From: Octopus vulgaris
Taxonomy: Eukaryota
Direction: 5' to 3'
Assembly: GCA_951406725.2 (NCBI GenBank)
Contig: OX597820.1
Location: 63,426,001-63,490,000, forward strand
DNA: 64,000 nt
Of the stretch, positions 1 to 58,591 are shown piece by piece. The translations under genes were made by a program, and so were the position numbers. The number at the start of each line of letters is the position of its first letter. Position 1 is the stretch's first letter. Under the pieces are notes generated by a model, which had not been told where the DNA came from, made no database searches, and saw only the letters and a program-made list of their open reading frames with translations.

Positions 1-1226
1 AAGAAGGATGTATTTAGGAAAGCTAACGCCCTCCAAGGTAAAAGGAAATGAAGGGATTTGATTGCCTGAGACAAAATAGGTGGACATAGAAAAAGAGATA
101 AATCCTGCGTAGGTGTTGATGATCGTACGAAGCCAGAGTTAGAAAAAGCAGAAAAAGAATGGGTTTGTGAGCGACTTCACTCCATTTAACTGAGCAACCG
201 TTTTCCACGAAGTGTAATTTTTCACCAGCATGTGTAATAATTACAACAATAATGTCCAAAATAGAGTGGAAGGCAATATTCCATTGTTATTAGAATGCAG
301 AGACATGCAATCACAACGGTTAGAAATTTTGATGGTGCAGTGTATCTTTGTATATTGAAATCAGTATTTGACGTATTTGGGAGAGATGAAATTGGCTTTA
401 GCGGTATGGCTGTCCATTTGATGGATATTGCCTTATTAAGAATGTTTTATATAAATGCTCCGTATGTGCATTTGGGAATGTTAATGAATATAATGTGGCT
501 ATGTCAAACAATTTTAAATGAAGATACTAAAATCCCAATTGTAGTTTTAGGAATGGGAGTAAAGGTCATACTACATCTTTAGCAAACTTTCTATGGATAC
601 TTATTGTAAAAATATTTAGTATGACATTGCTGTATAAAGTTAGTGATGATAAATGCCGTTTGTTTATTCTCGAAACCTATGAAATAGTTAGGTGTACATA
701 AAATTTCATTAATCAATGACATGAGGTTATGATACAGTGACCGCATCTGTAATGTATGTCTTTCGTACACAATAGTAAAATTAAGCTATTAGCTTTAACC
801 TGAATACTATTAGCATTACAATTCAACTCCTGAATTTTTACCCACTGTAGTATATCTTCTATTTTGCTATATTTGTTTTTCTAATAATGCTTAGATTCTC
901 TAGGCCCCTTTAACTTTACTACTTAGTTTCAATTAACACAACAGAAAATTATAGGTATAATATATCCGAACGTTCATCTTGGATTCATATCATGCATGCT
1001 GCGTTGCAAATAATCATATTTTCACTATCATACTGTTATATCCTGACTGCGTTGATTTTTATTGGCAGTTCAGCACTACCATATAGAGATAGTAATGATA
1101 AATATAATTAGTGTTTATCTTTAATCTATGAATTAATTAGCTGTAAACCATTTCTCATTAATTAGTGATACAATGTCTACATATGTTCTGCAAGTACTTG
1201 CTACATTACATTAATAGTTAAACTAT

Positions 1227-9669: not shown

Positions 9670-9715
<46 letters not shown>

Positions 9716-9717
<2 letters not shown>

Positions 9718-10460
9718 AATTAAGGACTGAACACGAAAAAGTGGACAGTCAACATGCTAGATAAAGACGTCAAATCGCCATTCTCCACAAAGATTTTTCT
9801 TTGTGGAGAATGGCGATTTGACGTCTATATCTAGCATGTTGACTGTCCACTTTTTCGTGTTCAGTCCTTAATTGGTATATATAAATATTTTAATCTTCGG
9901 ATTCTTTTTAATGTGCTAGACCACTGGTTTTAATTGACTAATATCAATTTTTACCCTTAATTTTTAAATATGAAATATATGTTCTCAAACCGATAAATTG
10001 ACTGCTGCTAATTATTAGCTGCAGGCTGGCAAAAGTAGAGGCATTTGAAAGATACATCCGAACGTAATAGGTCGTACTTTTTGCATGCGGGACTCCGGTA
10101 CCGTTTTTCATCTAGTACGGCATATTATGCTCATAACAAACTACGCTGACGAAACTACAGATATCCTTGTGATATTAATAGCTGAAACTGTACGGTACGT
10201 AGGTGATTATTCCATTTCGTATATTTCTTTTGTCTCATCCATTGCTTTAGGTCGTGCTGAATTTTATTTTTATTTGAGAACAAAATCTTTGTGGAGAATG
10301 GCGATTTGACGTCTATATCTAGCATGTTGACTGTCCACTTTTTCGTGTTCAGTCCTTAATTGGTATATATAAATATTTTAATCTTCGGATTCTTTTTAAT
10401 GTGCTAGACCACTGGTTTTAATTGACAAATATCAATTTTTACCCTTAATTTTTAAATATA
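9716..10460 (+). mobile_element. Short Penelope-type pLTR element: 78-bp fold-back plus ~174-bp direct repeat plus hammerhead, between (TA)n tracts
   Basis: Hairpin arms 9716-9793 and 9798-9875 (one mismatch, 4-nt loop). Segment 9798-9971 repeats at 10286-10460. HHR at 10141-10202. Flanked by (TA)n on both sides. Confidence 0.75.
10141..10202 (+). ncRNA. Type I hammerhead ribozyme (minimal stem III)
   Basis: CTACG | CTGACGA | AACTA..GATATC-CTTGT-GATATT..TAGCT | GAAA | C-TGTACG-G | TA | CGTAG. Stem I is 5 bp, the core is intact, loop III is quasi-palindromic, and the cleavage triplet is GUA. Confidence 0.8.
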
Positions 10461-10493
10461 TATATATATATATATATATTAATATATATATAT

Positions 10494-10750
10494 TGATAAA
10501 AATGGTAAGACAACAAAAGATTGAAATAGACTTCGATATTATGTTAATAGAGAAATTTGTCTGTAGATGTAATATGTGACAACTATTCGGTAGTCATGAT
10601 AAAACTCCGAGTTTCGGATGCCGCAGTGGAAATCCACGCCGCTATTTTCATAGCACTTTTTCCGATCGCCGGATAACTGAAGAGATGGCGGCGTGGAGGG
10701 CGGAGTTTTATCATGGCTACCGGATAACTATCACATATTACATTTACAGA
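10494..10750. mobile_element. Second short fold-back element with two partial hammerhead copies
   Basis: Inverted arms 10560-10609 and 10701-10750. HHR 5' half on plus (GATAA CTGAAGA GATG, 10672-10697). HHR 3' half on minus (CATCC GAAA CTCGGAG TT TTATC, 10598-10642). Bounded by (TA)n. Confidence 0.65.
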
Positions 10751-10758
10751 TATATATG

Positions 10759-10793
<35 letters not shown>

Positions 10794-12661: not shown

Positions 12662-15602
12662 TTATACACATATACTTATGCATATACTCATATGCTCACA
12701 TGTACCGACACATATAAATGCATATAAACATATCTAGTTTCCTTACGTACACACAGCCATACACACATATATGCATACATGCATATATTCATGTACATAC
12801 AAACATGTGTGTGTGTTCACCAGGTATTAATATGTTGCTAAAGTATGCGTTAATGGGGTTATTAATGTATGGAAAATATATAAGTAGTAGTGAAACAGTT
12901 ATAAATGTTACCAAATGTTTATGTTCACATGTTAGTAAAAAGGTTTCTAAAGATGTGTAAAGGTGGTTGCTTAACAGATTTAATGGGTGCAATGATAATT
13001 TTAAAAATTTAGTTGTAATAGATGTATATATTAATACTAATGATTGTATAGTTAAGTAAGAGTTAGATAGTAGGTGAGTAATATTATTGGGATTAAAGTG
13101 TTAAAGTGATCATACAAATTTTTCAGTGAGAGCAATAACAAATCAGTTATTTAATGTAGAGAATACATATCTTTCGGCGTGAATACACGAAATATTTTTC
13201 TCATTTCTTAGGTGTATGTTTAGAGATAAGAGTGAAAAAAGCCTCAGTTATGCAAATATTGCATTTTTTGTTGTTGACGTTTTAAGCCGTGCAGAAGCAA
13301 TCACATCGCTTTTAATTTCAAATTCAATATTATTATGCTTTAATTCTCATATAAATTTACTTAATCAAGTGAAGTCGATTTTCTGTTTATTTTAAAAAGT
13401 TTGGAGATGATTGGCCCTGCGATTATTAACTTTATTTTCAGTCGAACCGATATAAAAGTAATTTCTTACCGTGTGCTATAATAGCGCATTGATAGACCAC
13501 ATTTTTTCTTTTACATTGATTTCTTAAATTTACAATCAGTTTTGTCTCTACAGTAACAATTTTCCAGAATGCTATTATGTGTATATCTTTTAGAAGAATT
13601 AGTATTACTAGGATTAGTATGGTTCCATCATTGGGAGCTATGTGTACGGTATTATTAGACCTAGTAGAATTTGGATGCTATAGTTTATGTTTAGTGTAAT
13701 TAGTAAAATTATTGTTATGGTTTTTTTCTATTTGTGCACAATTTATTTAATTTCTTGTTGTTAATTGTTGATTTAACTGTAAATATGTTAGGAATTAGGC
13801 TAAAACAAACTTGACAGTTTTGTGATTTATAATTTCATTATATCTATTATCGATGCTAAAATATTTATGAATGGCTTTAAATATACTTTTAACAATGTTA
13901 TTTGTAATTTTCATTGCGTATGGAGTAATTAACCATATTTTATTAGATTTATCATAGTGATTGTTGATTATAGGAGTTTAGTAATTCCTTTTAGATTTGC
14001 TAGAGTTTGTTAAATGAGTATTTGTTTTAATATTATTATTTAGAGCATTATATGGGATAGCGGGAGGGAATTAATTGGTTATTCATACCAATATGTTTAT
14101 TAATTATGCCTTTATTATTGTCGAGATCTTATAATTGTAAATTGATGGCTTCTTTTATTTATCTTAGGTTTGAGATAATTTTATGTTGGTTTTTCTAATA
14201 TTATATTTGCTATTATTAGGTTCTTTTGAAATAATTTAGGGTTTGTTATTATCAATTCCCCGTTTATATGAAGTTGGATAACTAGTTATATGCTTATTTT
14301 TACTTATATTATTAGTTATAGTGGGATTATAAAATTTTCCAATTTTTATTGTTTTCCTTGTTATACGTTATGTTGTATTTATTGATGTTGTTATTAGGTT
14401 GATGTTATGTTATTATATCCTTATACCCAACGTTTGTAAAAGCTGTGTTGTAGTAATCCGCATGTCTATTAAATATTTCCTCATTAGAAGATAAATAGTT
14501 TAGTCTCTTACCAATTCTGGAGGATAATACATTTCTAATTGATCTCAGATGGTTAGTTTGGAAGTTAATATAGTTTAAATTAGAATTAGATTTTCGGAAA
14601 GGTTCATGTAATCCGGTTGTTAAATTAAAGTTAACTTCTAAGAAATTAATTGAAGTATTATCTCACTCAATAGAGATAGAAAGACGATGCCTTCTGAAAA
14701 ACTTGTAAAATCTCTTCTTACGTAATTCTACTTTTCTATTGGATGCATTTTTTACGATGAAAAGTGCATTGTCTCTATACAATCCGCCGCCAATTACCGG
14801 ACATTCATCTTGCTGGTCGGACAGCAAATGGATTCCAACAAGGTCAGTCACTTGGGTGGCGTCTTCGGTGCCCATTGTGATATCAAATAATTAGGGGTGT
14901 CTTTCTTAGTGCAAAATATATTGTCAACATTGGGTATGGATTTATGGACCGTTCGGATGACATTAATTTTATTCACGCTAAGATTAGCATATTTCTTCGC
15001 GAAAAGAAGAGCACTGTTAGTACAATATGGTTGATAGAGGAATAAGAATTACCAGTGTCTATTTGTAAGAATTTAGGTTTGTCCTTGTTTGGAAATTTAG
15101 TGAACCAGCTAATCGCTTCTTGGGTGTTAGACCATAGTTCAAGAGATATTTTCTATATAAGTATAGGTATATATTTATCTAGAATTATTTTGCATAATCT
15201 ACCTTGGTCCGACTTAGCGGGCCATATTGATCTAACTATAGGGTTGGTTTGAAAGTTAACTTTATGGACTTTTACTGTTATTCCAGATCTGATAGGTATG
15301 AATGGTTCAGTTTTATCATCGATGCAATATTCTGAAATGATTTTTCATGCGTCTAAATTACATTGTTGTTTAATATTTTGTATTCTTTTTGTGATTTCAT
15401 TTCTTGGTAGGTCATGATACGTATCAATGTTAAGGTTATATATATTGTTAGCTTTATCTGAATGCACAATAATTCCATCCTTGGCTTTTATGTCACGTTG
15501 TAAATCAATAAGTTTTCTTTGGTGTGTACTTCATCTAGAAGGTGTTTGGTAAATTTAGTATTTTTAATGATGGTCCAAAGTTCTTGTTCACATGTAGTAT
15601 TA

Positions 15603-17741: not shown

Positions 17742-18380
17742 AACTGGAAAAGATACTTAGATGATTGCTTTATATTCTAGAACAGAATTAAGAAAGACCT
17801 TAAAATTTATTTTGAACTAATAAAGAGCGTCCATGTATCAATCCAATTTACTACGGAAATCAATGAAAGAGAACTCCCATTCTTAGGTTTCTTAATAATT
17901 AAAGAGAATGAGATTATAACTGACCTCTATTACAAACGCACAGACACACCAATTTTTAGAGTTTAGATCTTGCTATCCTTCCTATACAAAAAGTAACACA
18001 CACTTTAAGACGAATATGCACAGTAGTTTCGGAGACAAATAGAAGAGAAAAACGATTCGCAGAACGTAACTTGTTCCTTAAAAAGGTATCTCAACAAACT
18101 AATAGAACAAGTGATAACTGAAGCTAAATATATCCCAATCTCTACACTAAGAAGAATAAATAAGACTGGCGATAAACGGAAAAAATGAACATAAATATAT
18201 CCCAAGAACCCCAATATTCTACAAACAGCCTTATTCTACACCAGTCGCCATGTCTCTGACAAACAATCAAGGAACAACAAGTAATCAACAGCTGAAGGCA
18301 ACAACCAGACCTTAAGAAACTGATAAGATTCACATTAGGGGAAGAAATGATGCAACTTACCAAATGTGAATACTCCTGAT
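17742..18380 (+). pseudogene. Penelope-like RT C-terminal fragment (different lineage from the 12.5-16.9 kb element)
   Basis: Translation from 17742: NWKRYLDDCFIF*...SIQFTTEINERELPFLG...DLYYKRTDT, later RQQPDLKKL. These are typical PLE RT/thumb motifs. Confidence 0.8.
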
Positions 18381-19317
18381 GAGAGCATGTCAAAGATTGT
18401 TCCTGTCTCGAATTTATTACAATATAATTCTCGTGCCTTAAACTTCTTGTAAATCTAGAAAATTCTTCTAAACATAAGTCGCATATTTTAGTTCTAGGCC
18501 TGTAAGGTTTTTGAAATACAAATTAATTCCTAATTGACGGTATAGTCTTTGTTTCTGCCTTTAAGAGACCAGATTAATTTTCTAAGACTTGTTGGGATTC
18601 TAAAATGAATGATCAAGTTAAAACTAAATCTGAGAGAAATGTGTAAAATTATCTTTGCAGTTGTTCAAAACGGGAATCCTGTTATGTGAAAAATAAACGT
18701 AAGACGAAAACTGTAATATAAAAATGTAAAGTTACATCTGAGATGAATGAATACTTTTACATCGGTGCAACATCATGAATTTTCAAGAGGAGGATGCTAA
18801 ATCATTTGAGTTCATTTAGAGATAGAAATAAAAAAATTTCCAAAGAAGTCTTAGAAAATTAATCTGGTCTATTAAATAGAGAAACAAAGATTATATTATC
18901 AATTGGGAATTAATTGGTCCTGCAAAACAATAGACTTGGAAGTAGAAAATGTGACTAATATTTAGGAGAATTTTACCGGATTTTTACATCCAAAGGTAAT
19001 GTAATAAATTCAATACAGGAACAAAATTTGAGATATTTACAATGAAGAAATTCAAATTAGCCCAGTATAAATGAATAATAAAGTTTTCAATAAAAGTGTA
19101 GTTTGAAATAAGGGAAGATAAGTGATTACCCAATCAAAGCGTGAATTGGAGATTGCTTATGTCTAGGTTATCGGACAACTCTACACCATACAAGGCAGAG
19201 TTGGCAAACGAAAAACCGTAAACAGTTAAATCGAAGGATATTCAGTAAAGACCCTGAAGAAACTGCACTGGTATCTTAGTAGGGCTGCAACTGCAACGTT
19301 ACTAATCATCATAATCC

Positions 19318-19370
<53 letters not shown>

Positions 19371-19475
19371 GTTGTTGTTGTTGTTGTTGTTGGATTTATA
19401 TATTAACTGTTGAATAGCCTATTTTGAATACCTGAGTGCAAACCAGTAGACGTTTTTCGGTAACCTCTTACTATT

Positions 19476-19546
<71 letters not shown>

Positions 19547-20760
19547 CTATCTATATATATATATATACATACATATATATTTCGAGAGGAGATTTTTCCT
19601 CAAAGCGTTAAGACTGAGGAATGAAACTTTATAGAAAGTGGAAAGACACTAATCTTTGGGAAGCGAGTTCACAAAACGTGCGTAGCCTTTGCTTGTATAA
19701 ATGTGCAAGCCATTTCAGTTCTTAACGTTTTCAAGCAGGTGTTATTATATATATGGAAAGTTGTTTCAGTAAAATTATCGTTGACTATTTCCGGTTTAGT
19801 TTCGGACTCAGAAATCTTATCAAGTATTCTCCTTTGCCCTCCGGAGAATGTAGATCCCATCGTTTATTTTATGAAGATAGAAAATTTAATATTTAAATTC
19901 TCCTAAATATTAGTCACATTTTCTACTATTGTTCTGCAGGACCAATTAATTCCCAATTGATAATATAATCTTTGTTTCTCTATTTAATGGACCAGATTAA
20001 TTTTCTAAGATTTCTTTGGAATTTTTTTTTTATTTCTATCTCTAAATGAACTCAAATGTAAAAGTATTCATTCATCTCAGATGCAACTTTACATTTTTAT
20101 ATTACAGTTTTCGTCTTACATTTATTTTTCACATAACAGGATTCCCGTTTTGAACAACTGCAAAGATAATTTTACACATTTCTCTCAGATTTAGTTTTAA
20201 CTTGATCATTCATTTTAGAATCCCAACAAGTCTTAGAAAATTAATCTGGTCTCTTAAAGGCAGGAACAAAGACTATACCGTCAATTGGGAATTAATTTGT
20301 ATTTCAAAAACCTTGTATTTCAAAAACCTTACAGGCCTAGAACTAAAATATGCGACTTATGTTTAGAAGAATTTTCTAGATTTACAAGACGTTTAATGCA
20401 CGAGAATTATATTGTAATAAATTCTAGACAGGAACAATCTTTGACATGCTCTCACATGACGTAATTCACATTTGCCCAGTGTAAATTAATAATAAACGTT
20501 TAAACAACAAAATTGTTTCAAATCATGGACTATAAGCGATGACCCAGACGAAATTGAATTGGAGATATTTCGCCTCTATCTTAAGCGATAACTCTACATC
20601 ATACAGCGCAGAGTAGATAAATAAAAAAATTCAAACAGTTAAATCAAAGAATATTAAGTAGAGTAACTGCAGTAAGGTTGAAATTGAGGCTGTTACTAAC
20701 CGGTGCAATTGAAACATATATAGGTCTACGCAAAACTGTATATATATTAAAACAATTAAA
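18381..20760. mobile_element. Nested inverted array of four PLE 3' ends (GIY-YIG C-terminus and 3' UTR)
   Basis: Large inverted repeat 18381-18973 / 19895-20453. On plus, 20225-20470 encodes TSLRKLIWSLKGRNKDYTVNWELI..PYRPRTKICDLCLEE..INSRQE..C.H. A diverged second variant lies at 18845-19050. Confidence 0.8.
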
Positions 20761-24445: not shown

Positions 24446-25545
24446 CGTTATTGTTTTTACGTTTTTGTATTCTTATTGGTGTCACGTATTCTGTATTTTT
24501 GTTCGTGTACTTCGTTCGTTTTCCGTCCTCGTGTTGTATACATTCGAAGCTTTCTTCCAGGGGATCTAATGCGCTTGGCTTAGATTTCCCTTGGCGGGCT
24601 GCCCATATCGGAGCAATCTCAAGATTAATCAGCCGAAATTGCTAAGATGATCTGGTTCTTGACTGATGACTGAGGGCTTCGAATGTCCCGTCCTGTGGTT
24701 CTTGTGTCGTCTCTGTGGTGTTTCATGTTCTTGTCCATGTCTGTAATTATTTTTACTGTTTACCTATATAATCGGCGGCTACGTATCCACAATTGTCCTT
24801 ATACGATAAGTATATTTTTTCTCTAGCATTGATACGACTCTTAATCTGTCTCTTTCTCTCTCTCTCTCTCCTCCCTTATTCCCCTTCCTTTCTTTCCCTC
24901 TCCATCCGTCTCCCCCCCTTCTACGTTTCTCTATCTCTCTCACCTCCAGCCCCCTCGATCTGTCTCTTTCTTCTCCTCCCTCGTCCACCTTCTCTCTCTT
25001 TTCATCTGTCCCTTTCTCCTGTCTTTTGTTCTCACGTGACCGCTAGCCTCTGTTGAGCGCTCTTTTCGTTCCAGCAGTCGCCGAAGCAACACGTATTTGT
25101 TCGTCTCCCTGCGGCCATTAGGCACAACTTCATAAGCCAGCCCCATACTCAACTCGTCCTGTCGAAAGACCCTTGTCCTACGTCCTGGTTTTGTTTTGTT
25201 GTTTATTTTTTATTTTTTCCGTTATTGTTTTTACGTTTTTGTATTCTTATTGGTGTCACGTATTCTGTATTTTTGTTCGTGTACTTCGTTCGTTTTCCGT
25301 CCTCGTGTTGTATACATTCGAAGCTTTCTTCCAGGGGATCTAATGCGCTTGGCTTAGATTTCCCTTGGCGGGCTGCCCATATCGGAGCAATCTCAAGATT
25401 AATCAGCCGAAATTGCTAAGATGATCTGGTTCTTGACTGATGACTGAGGGCTTCGAATGTCCCGTCCTGTGGTTCTTGTGTCGTCTCTGTGGTGTTTCAT
25501 GTTCTTGTCCATGTCTGTAATTATTTTGACTGTTTACCTATATAT
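24446..25545 (+). mobile_element. Element with two near-identical ~320-bp direct repeats (pLTR-like), ending in (TA)n
   Basis: 24446-24768 is approximately equal to 25220-25542 (identical ORF-track translations). The spacer is pyrimidine-rich, and each copy ends ..GTTTACCTATATA. Confidence 0.7.
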
Positions 25546-42615: not shown

Positions 42616-42762
<147 letters not shown>

Positions 42763-42916: not shown

Positions 42917-45900
42917 TTACATTGATAGGGTTTTTCTAAGGATGTGGGCAGTACTTGTTAGCACAATCTTTTGGATTTCCTTGAGACATGGTTTTCCAGG
43001 GATATTGTCTAGGTGTTTCTGACATCCCTTTTTTATCATACCTAGGGCACCTACAATAACAGGAACAGTTTTTGTTTTAAGATTCCACATCCTCTGTATT
43101 TCGATTTCCAGGTCCTTATATTTACTAAGTTTGTCAAATTCCTTGACAGATACATTTTTATCAGTGGGGACGCTTACTTCTATTAGTCTGCAGGTATTTT
43201 CTTCCCTGTCTTTAACAATTATGTCTGGTCGATTAGCCTTGATCGTTCTGTCAGTGTTGACTGGAAAATCCCAGAGGATGGTGACATCTTTACCTTCAAC
43301 AACTGGCTGAGGATGGTGTTCATACCAGTTAGCAGGAGTGTCGGATTTGTAGTGTTTACATATCTTCCAATGTATATACTGTCCTACCCTATCGTGGCGA
43401 TTTTTGTATTCGTTTGGTGTCAGCACAGGACATCCCGAAACGAGATGGTCTATTGTTTCGTCAAATGTGTCACAGAATCTGCATTTAGGGTCAGTACCGT
43501 TTCGGAGAACGTTAGCCTGGTAATTTCTGGTAAACAAGCTTTGATCTTGTGCTGCCATTATGAAGCCTTCAGTCTCTGCTTTCAATCCAGAACTCTTCAG
43601 CCACTGATGGGTTGTTGCTTGGTCTACATCAGCATTTTGGCTTCGGAGAATGTATTGTCCATGCAGGGGCTTCTGGCTCCACCGCCTCTCAATTTGATTC
43701 TGCCCATTCTTTTTTGCAGTCTGCCTGATTCGCTTTGCTTGCTTGGTAGCAGTGGTTTCTGGCTCTTCACCTGATTCAAGGTTAATGCCTAGTTCCCTTT
43801 CGAACTTATAAGCTTCCTTGACAATAGAATGCAGCTTTTTGCTGCTTTCGTGTTCACACACAAGTCGCAGCATCCAGTCGTTTGTACTAGATAGGTACCT
43901 GTTCATTCCTACAGTAGAGGTCTTATAGCACAGCTCCAATTGCATCATTCCTCTCCCCCCGCTGCTTCTAGGTAGGTACAAGCGGTCTACATCTGCCTTA
44001 GGGTGGTGCATGCTCCTGGATGTCAGTAACTTTCTTGTCTTCCTGTCCAAGCGTTGGAGTTCCGTAAGGTTCCAGTTAATGATGTTAAAACTGTACTGGA
44101 CTACTGGAAGTGCCAGGGTGTTAATGGCCTCAATGCAATTTTTGGAGTTGAGTTCAGTCTTCAGTACAAGCCTTATTCTCCTATAGTACTCCTTTCTTAT
44201 TTTTTCCTTCATAGTAGCATGATGTATACCATCTCCTTCGTTGATTCCTAGGTATTTGTAGCTTTCTTGTGGGTCAAGTTCCTTGATGGTAGTGTCAATA
44301 TCTAATTTAACAGAAGCTGTTTGCCTGAGCTTGCCTCTTACAAAAGTTGCTTTAGCACACTTATCAAGGCCAAAATCCATTCCGATATCATTGCTAAACT
44401 CTTTAACAGTTGTTAGCAGCCCTTCTAGCTCTTGGTCATTCTTGGCAAACAGCTTTAGATCGTCCATATAAAAAAGGTGGTTTATTAACTTGCTAAAAAC
44501 TTTGTACCCATATCTGGCACTATCCAATTCGTTTGAGAGTGGGATCAGTGCCATGCAAAAAAGTAATGGAGAGAGGGAGTCACCTTGAAAGATGCCTCGT
44601 TTGATGTTGATGCTGTTGGACTGGCTCATCCCATTACTATGGCTTAGAAAGAGACGTGTGTTCCACATGGTCATGCTATTCTCTAAGAATTTTGAGACGA
44701 CAGGGGAGATCTTGTATATCTCAAGGGCCTTGAGTATCCATTTATGTGGGACACTGTCATACGCTTTCCTGTAGTCTATCCATGCCATACTCAGGTTTTT
44801 GTTTTTGCTCCGGCAATTCTCTACAATCATTCTGTTTATGAGCAATTGGTCTTTGCACCCATAAGAGTTTCTTTTACAACCTTTTTGAGCTTGTGGAAGG
44901 ATAGAATTTTGTTCAAGGAAAGCGTACATTCTCTCCGTTATTATGGATGTGAGGATTTTGTAGGTGGTGTTGAGACATGTTATTGGCCGGTAATTCTTTG
45001 GGTTTTTTGTGTCTTCGGTTTTAGGTAATAGGTAAGTGGTTCCTTCAGTCAGCCAAGCAGGTATTTGCTCTGGGTTCTGAATGACATCAGACAGAGATGC
45101 AGCGAGATGTTCGTGTACCTCTGTCAAACAATTCAGCCAGAAGTTAGGGATCCGATCCAGTCCTGGGGTTTTCCATTTATGAGCCTTCCTAAGGACACAC
45201 CTTAGCTCCTCTATTCCTATTGCTTCCCATTTCTGTTCTTCAAGTTCATCCAGTCTCTCTTTCTCACGTTCTATCCAGTCAGCCTCAGCATTAAACTCTT
45301 TTTCGTTGCTCCATACCTTCTTCCAGAACTCCTCCACTTCCTCAATCTTAGGTGGATCTTCTATGTGTATTTTATTTTTGCCAATTTCCCTATAAAATTT
45401 CTTTGCATCTGTCTTAAAAAATTTATTTTGTCGATAAAATTTGTTTCTTTTGTCATACCTTCTAAGCCGTTGAGCTTTCAACTGTATCCGTTGTTTCAAC
45501 AGTTCCTTAGTTGCAGGGAGGTTTATGAGATCTTTGATTTTATATTTTTGCTTGATTTTTCTAGCTTTTCTCGGCTTAATATTCACTCCTCTAGCAAGCT
45601 CATCGAGAACTGAAACATCCGCCCGCAGAGATTCAATCTCTTTTTGTATCGCTACTTTCCACTTAGGAGGTTCATTGACATGCCTGGCCTTTTTCTTTGT
45701 CATCTTAATACCTAGTTGGGTAGTTACTACTTTAGCAGTGGAATAAATGAGATTATTTAAGGTTGTCAAATCATTCCCCTTATTTCTTAAGATCTGTCCT
45801 AGGGCAACGTTATATGTCATGATTGTGTTGTTATTTCTTGTGCCATTTGAAAACTTTGGTAGTGGTTCTCTATTAACCATGTCAGTGAGCTCAATCTTGC

Positions 45901-46798
45901 CGAGTTCTCTCATAATGTCCACTTTTGCTTCCATAATCTTTTCTCTATTATTCACCTCAAATTCTATGTCATATCTATTTTGGTTTTCTTGAGGAAGGTC
46001 TACGTTCTCCTCTTTTTTCAAATCTCTCGTCTTCGCTATTCTTTGTTTAACTTCCCCATTGGGAAGTTGATTTGCCGCTTGTACACTGGCTTCTGTGCTA
46101 CTATTACCTATTTCGTCTACATTGTTGCTGTTTTCTTTTGGTCTACCATGAGCTATTAGTGTCCTAATTTTGTCAATTTCAGCGTCAGTTAGTCTTTTGT
46201 TTTTAATTATATCTCTGCGTACATTACTTAATTTATTTGCGTCTATATATCTACGTACGTCATTGCCTACTGAATTTCTCCATGAGATGTATGTTTGTAC
46301 ACTGAGGTTATTGTTTGGGTTTAGTTGGGCTGTATAAAAAGCTTTCAACACATCTCTATAGTCCTCTCTGGTCCATTTTATACGTTTTGCTTTAGGTGGT
46401 GTTTTTGGTGGTGTCACTACAAGTCCAGAGTTAGAAGTATTCTGGTTCTGGTCACCTGGTAGATCGTCTTTTTGAGAGTTTGTTCCAGCAGCAAACTTTT
46501 CGACCCCAGTCTGGTTCCCTACTGGGTAACGCGGTCCTTGTTGTCCCGGGCGATGACCGATCCGGCATGATTTTTGGCTTGTTTTCATTAAATGATTGAC
46601 GGCGACATCAGAGGGGTCCATTTTTTCAGAGTCAACTTTTTGACAAGACGCCGCTTCTGTGACGGTGACAGGGTCAATTTTTTGACAAAACACCGCTTCT
46701 GAATTCTCCGAATTAATATATTGTTCATATCGAACTCGCATAAGACTTACAGATCGAAATTCGCCTCTATTTCTTTTGGTAGTCATGTTTCCGGGCAT
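42917..46798 (-). CDS. Reverse transcriptase with CCHC zinc knuckle and restriction-enzyme-like endonuclease (1293 aa)
   Basis: Motifs WKTPGLD, NYRPITCL, WIDYRKAYDSVPH, GIFQGDSLSPLLF, HLFYMDDLKL, YKYLG, CRFC..DETIDHLVSGC, RHD and RPDIIV..CRLIEVSVP..K.SKY. No stops or frameshifts. Confidence 0.96.
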   Translation of the reverse strand: MPGNMTTKRNRGEFRSVSLMRVRYEQYINSENSEAVFCQKIDPVTVTEAASCQKVDSEKMDPSDVAVNHLMKTSQKSCRIGHRPGQQGPRYPVGNQTGVEKFAAGTNSQKDDLPGDQNQNTSNSGLVVTPPKTPPKAKRIKWTREDYRDVLKAFYTAQLNPNNNLSVQTYISWRNSVGNDVRRYIDANKLSNVRRDIIKNKRLTDAEIDKIRTLIAHGRPKENSNNVDEIGNSSTEASVQAANQLPNGEVKQRIAKTRDLKKEENVDLPQENQNRYDIEFEVNNREKIMEAKVDIMRELGKIELTDMVNREPLPKFSNGTRNNNTIMTYNVALGQILRNKGNDLTTLNNLIYSTAKVVTTQLGIKMTKKKARHVNEPPKWKVAIQKEIESLRADVSVLDELARGVNIKPRKARKIKQKYKIKDLINLPATKELLKQRIQLKAQRLRRYDKRNKFYRQNKFFKTDAKKFYREIGKNKIHIEDPPKIEEVEEFWKKVWSNEKEFNAEADWIEREKERLDELEEQKWEAIGIEELRCVLRKAHKWKTPGLDRIPNFWLNCLTEVHEHLAASLSDVIQNPEQIPAWLTEGTTYLLPKTEDTKNPKNYRPITCLNTTYKILTSIITERMYAFLEQNSILPQAQKGCKRNSYGCKDQLLINRMIVENCRSKNKNLSMAWIDYRKAYDSVPHKWILKALEIYKISPVVSKFLENSMTMWNTRLFLSHSNGMSQSNSINIKRGIFQGDSLSPLLFCMALIPLSNELDSARYGYKVFSKLINHLFYMDDLKLFAKNDQELEGLLTTVKEFSNDIGMDFGLDKCAKATFVRGKLRQTASVKLDIDTTIKELDPQESYKYLGINEGDGIHHATMKEKIRKEYYRRIRLVLKTELNSKNCIEAINTLALPVVQYSFNIINWNLTELQRLDRKTRKLLTSRSMHHPKADVDRLYLPRSSGGRGMMQLELCYKTSTVGMNRYLSSTNDWMLRLVCEHESSKKLHSIVKEAYKFERELGINLESGEEPETTATKQAKRIRQTAKKNGQNQIERRWSQKPLHGQYILRSQNADVDQATTHQWLKSSGLKAETEGFIMAAQDQSLFTRNYQANVLRNGTDPKCRFCDTFDETIDHLVSGCPVLTPNEYKNRHDRVGQYIHWKICKHYKSDTPANWYEHHPQPVVEGKDVTILWDFPVNTDRTIKANRPDIIVKDREENTCRLIEVSVPTDKNVSVKEFDKLSKYKDLEIEIQRMWNLKTKTVPVIVGALGMIKKGCQKHLDNIPGKPCLKEIQKIVLTSTAHILRKTLSM

Positions 46799-46949
46799 AA
46801 CTGTGTAGTGACTTTCTAAATTCAGTGACCAATTTTCTCTTTTTTGCGTTTGTTCGTGAAAAATCGCTTTGTTTTTGTTTTGTTTTCGTCCGCGTAACGT
46901 GGTTTTTCCTTCTGTGTGTACGTGTGAGCGCGTGTATGCATTATTTATG

Positions 46950-47047
46950 CTTTATAATTAAAATGTGTACATGTATGCACAAACAGTTGCATGTATACTT
47001 TATAATTAAAATGTGTACGTGTATGCATAAACAGTTGCATGTATACT
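46950..47047. repeat. 48-bp tandem duplication in the LINE 5' UTR
   Basis: CTTTATAATTAAAATGTGTAC.TGTATGCA.AAACAGTTGCATGTATA occurs twice. Confidence 0.85.
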
Positions 47048-47208: not shown

Positions 47209-47890
<682 letters not shown>

Positions 47891-50925: not shown

Positions 50926-50926
<1 letters not shown>

Positions 50927-51028
50927 CGCTGTCAAGTTTATTCTTCAGCTTTCCAGGTTCGATAAAATGGTGTACAAATATACTACTGCGCAGAAACTTT
51001 TAAATATAAACGCATATAAGTCTGTACT

Positions 51029-51094
<66 letters not shown>

Positions 51095-51132
51095 CATATT
51101 TATATACATATATACGTGTATATATATACATG

Positions 51133-51200
<68 letters not shown>

Positions 51201-51325
51201 TATATACATATATATGTACACAAGTACACACGTATATGCGTTTATATTTAAAAGTTTCTGCGCAGTAGTATATTTGTACACCATTTTATCGAACCTGAAA
51301 AGCTGAAGAATAAACTCGACAGCGG
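50926..51325. repeat. 110-bp inverted duplication flanking a (TA)n tract
   Basis: Arms 50926-51035 and 51216-51325 with a few mismatches. The right arm continues into a diverged minus-strand SINE (to ~51410). Confidence 0.9.
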
Positions 51326-58032: not shown

Positions 58033-58100
<68 letters not shown>

Positions 58101-58146
58101 AAACAAGTCAAAAATAGAAAATGCTAAGATGATTTTATAGTGAATC

Positions 58147-58190
58147 TTTCAGTACCGGTTTCGGTCATTTTGAGACCTTTTCAACTGTAA
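58147..58190 (-). ncRNA. Identical hammerhead copy on the opposite arm
   Basis: Exact reverse complement of 58420-58463. Confidence 0.7.
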
Positions 58191-58419
58191 CGATTAAATA
58201 ATTAATTTAGAAAAATTTAGAAAAATTAGAAGAAAGGTTTTTTTAAAGGAATTCTTCCAAGTGTTCAATAAATTTGTTTGCACTTGTGCAAAAGTGCAAA
58301 CAAGGGAGTCAGAGAAAGGCAGAATGCCACCTATATCTGAACACTACTATGGAAGAATTCCTTTAAAAAAACCTTTCTTCTAATTTTTCTAAATTTTTCT
58401 AAATTTAATTATTTAATCG

Positions 58420-58463
58420 TTACAGTTGAAAAGGTCTCAAAATGACCGAAACCGGTACTGAAA
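58420..58463 (+). ncRNA. Minimal type I hammerhead ribozyme, U3-A8 core variant
   Basis: TTACAG | TTGAAAA | GGTC-TCAAAAT-GACC | GAAA | CCGG | TA | CTGAAA, with palindromic ACCGGT in stem III. Confidence 0.7.
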
Positions 58464-58591
58464 GATTCACTATAAAATCATCTTAGCATTTTCTATTTTT
58501 GACTTGTTTTTTCATATATATCAACTCGTGTGTTCCTTTCCACCCTTATACATATATATATATATATACACATTATATATATGTATATATA

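What the first reader, a model, noticed from the sequence alone, without database searches (positions are those of the whole stretch)
9716..10460. 78-bp hairpin, direct repeat and intact hammerhead in one 745-bp unit
The inverted partial copy, direct repeat and HHR (10141-10202, full CUGACGA/GAAA/GUA core) form a complete miniature pLTR architecture with no coding sequence. The repeats are nearly identical, suggesting a young insertion.
Basis: partly seen in the sequence, partly recalled or inferred. Interest (0 to 1): 0.7.

Follow-up and report, generated by a model that had tools for sequence, protein, structure and literature searches.

The report
Penelope-pasted hammerhead repeat, damaged copy
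This stretch is one slightly damaged copy of a young, dispersed, protein-free repeat that carries a hammerhead (predicted self-cutting RNA) motif, and its back-to-back shape suggests it was pasted in by a Penelope-type retrotransposon enzyme, likely from a small RNA circle, which makes it a new member of a known kind of genome parasite.

Summary
The hairpin (78 bp, one mismatch), the 174-nt direct repeat and the hammerhead core are real. The 745 bp is not the unit. The family monomer is 508 nt and non-coding, and it inserts into (TA)n as tandem arms of 0.1-3 units. The 5' ends vary. The 3' ends fall at two fixed points 96 nt apart, and 20 of 20 two-armed loci in a sample blind to end type pair one short end with one long end. 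This is the Penelope 'tail' footprint, so I read it as a non-LTR retrozyme mobilised by a Penelope-like element. Hammerhead helices I and II show compensatory changes across subfamilies. This copy is not intact: it has a private G-to-A change in helix II (10154; 48 of 49 motifs keep G), a private 20-nt deletion and only one ribozyme, so it is probably a dead end. No coding parent was found. An active Hydra-type element in the genome shares the footprint but not the sequence. Cleavage and RNA circles are untested. The scan has already noted this kind many times in this genome. New member of a known kind.

The parts
9686..9715 (.). (TA)15 target tract on the left; its last 8 nt could equally come from the element's own TATATATA
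9716..9797 (-). Short (inverted) arm, monomer positions -4 to 78, ending at the short fixed 3' end; one private change at 9764
9798..10459 (+). Long arm, about 1.3 monomers, ending at the long fixed 3' end (monomer position about 174)
9798..10285 (+). One monomer: 488 nt here, 508 nt in the family
9876..9971 (+). 96-nt 'tail' between the two fixed ends, beginning with an internal TATATATA; second copy at 10364-10459
10029..10030 (+). Junction of a 20-nt deletion private to this copy (absent from the 14 other monomers aligned)
10141..10202 (+). Type I hammerhead motif: helix I 10141-10145/10198-10202, core 10146-10152, helix II 10153-10183, GAAA 10184-10187, self-complementary helix III 10187-10196, predicted cut after 10197
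10154..10154 (+). Private G-to-A in helix II that breaks the pair with C10182
10286..10459 (+). Direct repeat of 9798-9971 (start of the next monomer); one private change at 10427
10460..10493 (.). (TA)n tract on the right, shared with a separate neighbouring insertion

Best explanation
This is one insertion of a dispersed, non-coding 508-nt hammerhead repeat, built of two back-to-back arms in a (TA)n tract, and it was likely written by a borrowed Penelope-type reverse transcriptase/endonuclease copying the repeat's RNA, probably a circle. Shown: the monomer, the (TA)n target, two fixed 3' ends 96 nt apart, variable 5' ends, the pairing of one short with one long end, tandem units that share locus-specific variants, and a covarying ribozyme fold. 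Inferred: tandem source loci are transcribed; paired hammerheads, joined through the palindromic helix III, cut out monomers that a host ligase closes; the Penelope protein nicks both strands of (TA)n, primes one cDNA at each of two internal sites 166 and 262 nt downstream of the cut, and runs on through the ribozyme junction; repair joins the two cDNA ends. The hairpin and the direct repeat are by-products of that insertion. This copy has one damaged ribozyme and is probably a dead end.
For: In the sample (the first 22 opposite-strand clusters listed, less 2 already held; the 22-mer lies in both arm types), 20 of 20 two-armed loci have one short and one long end, p about 1e-6 against independent ends. 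In the earlier, less neutral set of 43 loci, 24 were two-armed and 21 of those were short plus long; the other 19 were single-armed. PMC11167929 (main text read): a purified Penelope protein cuts and extends both strands of AT-rich DNA, starts at two internal RNA sites that define the genomic tail, and is predicted to be a dimer. Tandem units within L004 and within L005 are 100% identical while the two loci differ from each other; 64 non-majority positions are shared by all copies within a locus across 19 loci, including across opposite arms. Hammerhead: 96.2% of cells paired and 3 pairs with changes on both sides among 14 variants; the helix III stretch pairs with itself over 10 nt at -12.0 kcal/mol, the dimer design described in PMC4209133. 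The circular monomer folds at z = -3.9 against 60 shuffles, GC 34%. Sister subfamilies of about 505 and 530 nt share both end points and also run into tandem non-coding units.
Against: No cleavage, transcript or circle was shown. The same PMC11167929 found that ribozyme mutants do not affect insertion in vitro and found no reads ending at the cut, so the ribozyme may not be needed. In bioRxiv 10.64898/2026.07.22.740005, 8 of 9 retrozyme dimers tested did not cleave. No coding partner with matching ends was found. The tail is 96 nt, not the 30-40 nt described in PMC8557442. One search also counted 57 positions that differ within loci, and shared variants fit a homogeneous linear multimer as well as a circle. 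Covariation counts come from related sequences (pairs measure: 26 of 500 shuffles reach it). The minimum-energy fold of the monomer does not show the active core. One locus (L011) pairs two short ends and two (L007, L063) are irregular.
Confidence: 0.65

Rival explanations
1. Same family and same Penelope-type insertion, but the template is a linear read-through transcript of a tandem source locus. The hammerhead is a conserved passenger or acts at another step, and no circle is needed.
For: Tandem arrays of 3 to 4 units per arm exist and could serve as templates. PMC11167929 found uncleaved RNA to be the main substrate and ribozyme mutants to have no effect on insertion. Variants shared within a locus fit this too.
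Against: Compensatory changes in helices I and II and a kept palindromic helix III point to selection on the fold. Coral, mussel and axolotl retrozymes accumulate as circles (PMC7229834, sections 14 and 17 read).
Confidence: 0.25
2. It is only the 5'-truncated non-coding end (pLTR) of an autonomous Penelope-like element.
For: The tandem plus inverted layout, the tail and the (TA)n target are those of truncated autonomous copies (PMC8557442). Loci were read with only about 1.5 kb of flank and searches scored only the top 40 candidates.
Against: Long copies run into further 508-nt units, up to 3.0. tblastn with four Penelope-type proteins on 122 and then 50 loci (some overlapping) found no coding stretch upstream on the same strand; the hits lay downstream, on the other strand or across a TA tract. 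The ends of 30 Hydra-type and 30 Neptune-type loci do not match the monomer, apart from L130, which is a separate insertion at a locus already counted.
Confidence: 0.06
3. The hairpin and repeats arose at DNA level (fold-back or satellite-type duplication, or a MITE-like element), and the hammerhead is incidental.
For: The flanks are unstable microsatellites, no target-site duplication can be defined, and Rfam gives no hammerhead hit.
Against: Copies are dispersed over many contigs with fixed 3' ends and variable 5' ends. The inverted arms differ in length from locus to locus, unlike terminal inverted repeats. The ribozyme helices covary.
Confidence: 0.04

Closest known systems
Metazoan non-LTR retrozymes (Cervera and de la Pena 2020, PMC7229834; Li, Clavereau and Pollet, bioRxiv 10.64898/2026.07.22.740005)
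   Same: Non-coding tandem monomers, one type I hammerhead per unit, low GC, co-existence with autonomous Penelope-like elements.
   Different: 508 nt is longer than the 170-400 nt of the first paper, though within the 51-972 bp of the second. In the parts read, neither describes back-to-back arms with two fixed ends (no 'inverted' in the main text of PMC7229834). No target-site duplication can be defined. RNA not shown here.
Endonuclease-positive Penelope-like elements and their pLTR/tail structure (Craig et al. 2021, PMC8557442; Frangieh et al. 2024, PMC11167929)
   Same: Partial tandem plus inverted 5'-truncated copy, a tail at one end only, (TA)n target, two internal start points, hammerhead upstream of them.
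   Different: No RT or GIY-YIG frame. Tail of 96 nt against 30-40. The short start sits on 8 nt of TATATATA that match the target, whereas the anole enzyme started at a site not homologous to the cut DNA.
Non-autonomous Chlamys elements such as MRC1 (PMC8557442, passage read)
   Same: Non-autonomous Penelope derivatives that form pLTRs and head-to-tail insertions.
   Different: Those resemble their autonomous family at the 3' end and Chlamys mostly lack canonical hammerheads. Here no matching partner was found.
Hydra-clade Penelope element of this genome (L127, 717-aa frame, 2,590-nt unit)
   Same: Young, (TA)n target, two fixed 3' ends, tandem and inverted copies, a hammerhead-like motif upstream of the ends.
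   Different: Ends about 68 nt apart; core reads CCGAAGA in 32 of 32 hits; no sequence similarity to the 508-nt monomer (best E 0.16; local score reached by 228 of 300 shuffles).

Membership tests
Non-LTR retrozyme | Short non-coding monomer in tandem copies | tested here: met
   508-nt unit, up to 3.0 units per arm, longest ORF 74 aa
Non-LTR retrozyme | Type I hammerhead in each unit | tested here: met
   49 motif hits in 43 loci (one is a degraded partial); three in L004 and three in L005; covariation
Non-LTR retrozyme | At least two consecutive complete ribozymes ('active' by Li et al.) | tested here: not met
   This copy has one ribozyme with a broken helix II pair. Other loci of the family do meet it (L003, L004, L005).
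Non-LTR retrozyme | GC content below 45-50% | tested here: met
   34%
Non-LTR retrozyme | Self-cleavage and circular RNA | not testable with these tools
   Needs bench work or raw RNA reads
Non-LTR retrozyme | Autonomous Penelope-like elements in the same genome | tested here: met
   150 top matches at 97-100% to a Hydra-type endonuclease region, many in open frames of 717 aa; an older Neptune-type family
Autonomous Penelope-like element | ORF with RT and GIY-YIG endonuclease | tested here: not met
   None in the unit, none upstream on the same strand in 122 + 50 loci
Penelope-type insertion footprint | Partial tandem and inverted 5'-truncated copy | tested here: met
   24 of 43 loci two-armed; 5' ends variable
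Penelope-type insertion footprint | Tail between two fixed 3' ends | tested here: met
   Two ends 96 nt apart (longer than the published 30-40 nt); 20 of 20 short plus long
Penelope-type insertion footprint | Microsatellite or AT-rich target | tested here: met
   (TA)n follows the 3' ends in the loci printed
Penelope-type insertion footprint | Terminal homology to an autonomous partner | tested here: inconclusive
   No match in 30 Hydra-type and 30 Neptune-type loci; other families not sampled
Rfam hammerhead families | Score at or above the gathering threshold | tested here: not met
   No hit at gathering score or at E up to 10
microRNA precursor | Conserved, constant hairpin reaching a family threshold | tested here: not met
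   All MIR hits lie below gathering score; the arms vary from locus to locus

The most novel reading that the evidence does not exclude
The strict pairing of one short with one long end is a genomic record of a dimeric Penelope enzyme priming from both nicked strands at two sites of one retrozyme RNA circle, with the short start set by base-pairing of the (TA)n primer to an internal UAUAUAUA. The family is carried by a Penelope clade with which it shares no detectable sequence, so recognition would be by RNA shape. That would tie animal retrozymes to Penelope enzymes by mechanism, where the papers read argue from co-occurrence and pLTR homology.
Probability: 0.4. Interest if true: 0.55.

Novelty: new member of a known kind. 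Interest (0 to 1): 0.32.

Why it matters
The class is known, and this copy is a damaged one. The value lies in the family. The papers read propose Penelope-like elements as the carriers of animal retrozymes but do not show it, and this family's insertions bear the two-start, both-strand footprint that the one in vitro Penelope study predicts. It gives defined RNA templates and start points for a direct test with a young, intact Hydra-type protein from the same genome. The same reading has already been reached for other families in this genome, so the gain from this locus alone is small.

Tried and rejected
Rfam scans: no hammerhead hit; the sub-threshold MIR hits are generic hairpin matches. 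RNA evidence: no RNA holder listed. Laying Logan contigs of 4 of the 24 runs on one monomer showed fragments of this and sister subfamilies, but contigs cannot show ends, strand or circles and the runs may be DNA, so this is no evidence either way. Partner search: Hydra-type and Neptune-type loci and three sister subfamilies gave no link to an ORF; the L218/L219 adjacency is one duplicated locus with a TA tract between the two parts. My first scan found no hammerhead in the Hydra-type element because it asked for CUGANGA; a CCGAAGA variant is there. Symmetric junctions: 9 of 24 and 13 of 20 two-armed loci seemed to have both 5' ends within 12 nt, but many of these are places where similarity to my reference stops in a sister subfamily, so I do not rely on the counts. 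The junction in this copy is a blunt join with no microhomology. A target-site duplication cannot be defined in (TA)n. Pfam and NCBIfam did not name the Hydra-type protein; the label rests on its RWK, DKT, CxCX5C, CxxC and CxH motifs set against section 11 of PMC8557442. Dropped rows: duplicate loci of one place were left out of the census (L006, L012, L014, L015, L030 and others; L029 was replaced by the longer L063); L022 and L027 (length variants) and one degraded motif were left out of alignment A1, which holds 14 of 17 variants. Earlier-finding look-ups by sequence and by relatives gave nothing relevant. Literature searches (hammerhead + Penelope + octopus; retrozyme + cephalopod; octopus + hammerhead ribozyme) listed no paper on this family; supplements and Repbase or Dfam were not seen and may hold it.

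Full report
Observation. The hairpin stem is 9716-9793 with 9798-9875, 78 bp, one A-A mismatch, 4-nt loop. The direct repeat is 9798-9971 and 10286-10459, 174 nt, one mismatch. The hammerhead at 10141-10202 is type I, with CUGACGA at 10146-10152, GAAA at 10184-10187 and GUA at 10195-10197. Both flanks are (TA)n. Rfam finds no hammerhead here, even at E up to 10.

The unit. The genome is 2.8 Gb in 227 contigs; that it is an octopus is my inference and is also said in earlier notes. A search with the 745 bases gave 1,478 candidates, of which 40 were scored. The copies show a 508-nt monomer in head-to-tail arms. Exact 22-23-letter patterns give 31 matches for the 3' half of this hammerhead variant, 1,933 for the short end and 1,617 for the tail, each with 0 for the reversed control. 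The two larger counts are matches, not loci, and include sister subfamilies that are 70-95% identical elsewhere, with periods of about 505 and 530 nt. The monomer is 34% GC, its longest ATG frame is 74 aa, and it folds as a circle at -119.5 kcal/mol, z = -3.9 against 60 shuffles.

This copy. It is an 82-nt inverted arm (9716-9797) joined bluntly to a 662-nt direct arm (9798-10459, about 1.3 units). Against the family it has a 20-nt deletion at 10029/10030, seen in none of 14 other monomers aligned, and single changes at 9764, 10154 and 10427. The change at 10154 turns the first G-C pair of helix II into A-C; 48 of 49 motif hits in 43 loci keep G. The canonical fold weakens from -9.1 to -2.4 kcal/mol, the predicted probability of the core-closing pair falls from 0.96 to 0.05, and the fold z-score goes from -2.08 to -0.26. 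With one ribozyme it cannot excise a monomer from its own transcript. Identity to the closest monomers is 99.4%, so 'young' holds.

The ribozyme in the family. Among 14 variants, 96.2% of cells pair and three pairs change on both sides: two in helix I and one in helix II. Helix III keeps pairing through one-sided changes. These are related sequences, so the shuffle figures are not probabilities; 26 of 500 shuffles reach the pairs measure. The 10-nt helix III stretch pairs with a second copy at -12.0 kcal/mol. PMC4209133 (passages read) describes this short palindromic helix III as the dimer design of metazoan type I hammerheads. Activity is untested; in bioRxiv 10.64898/2026.07.22.740005 (parts 1-3 of 5 read) only 1 of 9 dimers cleaved.

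Insertion footprint. In 43 loci the 5' ends are scattered and arms span 0.1-3.0 units, but the 3' ends fall at monomer position 78 or about 174, followed by (TA)n. Of these loci 24 are two-armed: 21 pair a short with a long end, one pairs two short ends (L011) and two are irregular (L007, L063). Of the 19 single-armed loci, 14 end short and 5 long. That set was partly chosen with a query of the same shape, so I drew a second one from a pattern present in both arm types: 20 of 20 two-armed loci pair short with long, p about 1e-6. Most of those 20 belong to sister subfamilies. The short end lies on an internal TATATATA that matches the target, so its exact position is ambiguous over 8 nt. Units within L004 and within L005 are identical. 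Across 19 loci, 64 non-majority positions are shared by all copies in a locus and 57 differ within a locus, of 5,767 positions covered twice or more. This fits one template lineage per insertion but does not separate a circle from a linear multimer.

Mechanism. PMC8557442 (passages and section 11 read) describes Penelope-like insertions as partial tandems with an inverted 5'-truncated copy and a 30-40 bp tail at one end. PMC11167929 (main text read) shows that a purified Penelope protein cuts and extends both strands of AT-rich DNA and starts at two internal RNA sites that define the tail; it also found the ribozyme dispensable in vitro. PMC7229834 (passages, sections 14 and 17 read) shows circles for coral, mussel and axolotl retrozymes and names Penelope-like elements as candidate carriers. 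I commit to: transcription of tandem source loci, dimeric self-cleavage, circularisation, then two-strand target-primed copying from sites 166 and 262 nt downstream of the cut and repair of the two cDNA ends. I put Penelope-type insertion of a non-autonomous RNA at about 0.9 and the full scheme with a circle at 0.65.

Partner. The genome holds a young Hydra-type element: 717-aa frame, 2,590-nt unit, 150 top matches at 97-100%, with the RWK, DKT and CxCX5C motifs given for that clade. It has two fixed ends about 68 nt apart in (TA)n and a hammerhead-like motif with core CCGAAGA in 32 of 32 hits, but no similarity to the 508-nt monomer. An older family that I label Neptune-type from its linker motif also shows none. 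No Penelope coding stretch lay upstream on the same strand in 122 and 50 loci tested. The carrier is therefore not identified, and a rare coding parent is not excluded.

Novelty. This is a new member of the non-LTR retrozyme kind. Three paper searches listed nothing on this family; supplements and repeat databases were not seen. The scan's notes hold 249 entries fitting these words in this genome, several with the same reading for other monomer sizes; they are unchecked and are not counted as support. Interest 0.32.

Noticed in passing
window 10488-10770: A separate short two-armed fragment of a Hydra-type Penelope end, 79-83% identical to the active family's non-coding region, lies in the same TA tract; its hammerhead-like motif is split between the arms.
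   Followed up: partly
window 42917-46951 (-): Open frame of 1,343 aa with an RT domain (Pfam RVT_1, E 3.7e-31), a C-terminal CCHC motif and a PD-(D/E)xK-like stretch, between two long (TTA)n tracts (42617-42762, 47210-47889). It looks like an intact R4/Dong-type non-LTR element targeting TAA repeats; that label is recalled, not tested.
   Followed up: partly
window 411-692, 13290-13572, 14330-15467, 17742-17948, 18656-19006: Decayed Penelope-type RT and endonuclease fragments, 26-50% identical to the proteins used.
   Followed up: no
window 24446-24770 and 25220-25544: 325-nt direct repeat, 99.7% identical, 774 nt apart; no hammerhead found by my scan; possibly another young tandem insertion.
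   Followed up: no
window 58097-58513, 50926-51325, 18361-20474: Further inverted repeats (97%, 96% and 87% identical) of the kind left by two-armed insertions.
   Followed up: no
L127:3491-5641 and L067-L096: The most recently active Hydra-type family has a hammerhead-like core reading CCGAAGA instead of CUGANGA in 32 of 32 hits, although PMC8557442 reports canonical hammerheads throughout that clade; whether it still cleaves is open.
   Followed up: partly
L220 (G000:C1:13046000-13049950), L236: Sister subfamily of about 505 nt in long arrays (2.5 + 4.2 units; 3.8 + 0.7 units); the commonest hammerhead in this set of loci has a longer palindromic helix III and U at the first helix II position.
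   Followed up: partly
window 9716-9875: If transcribed, the 78-bp hairpin would be a long double-stranded RNA open to editing or small-RNA processing; this is inference and was not tested.
   Followed up: no
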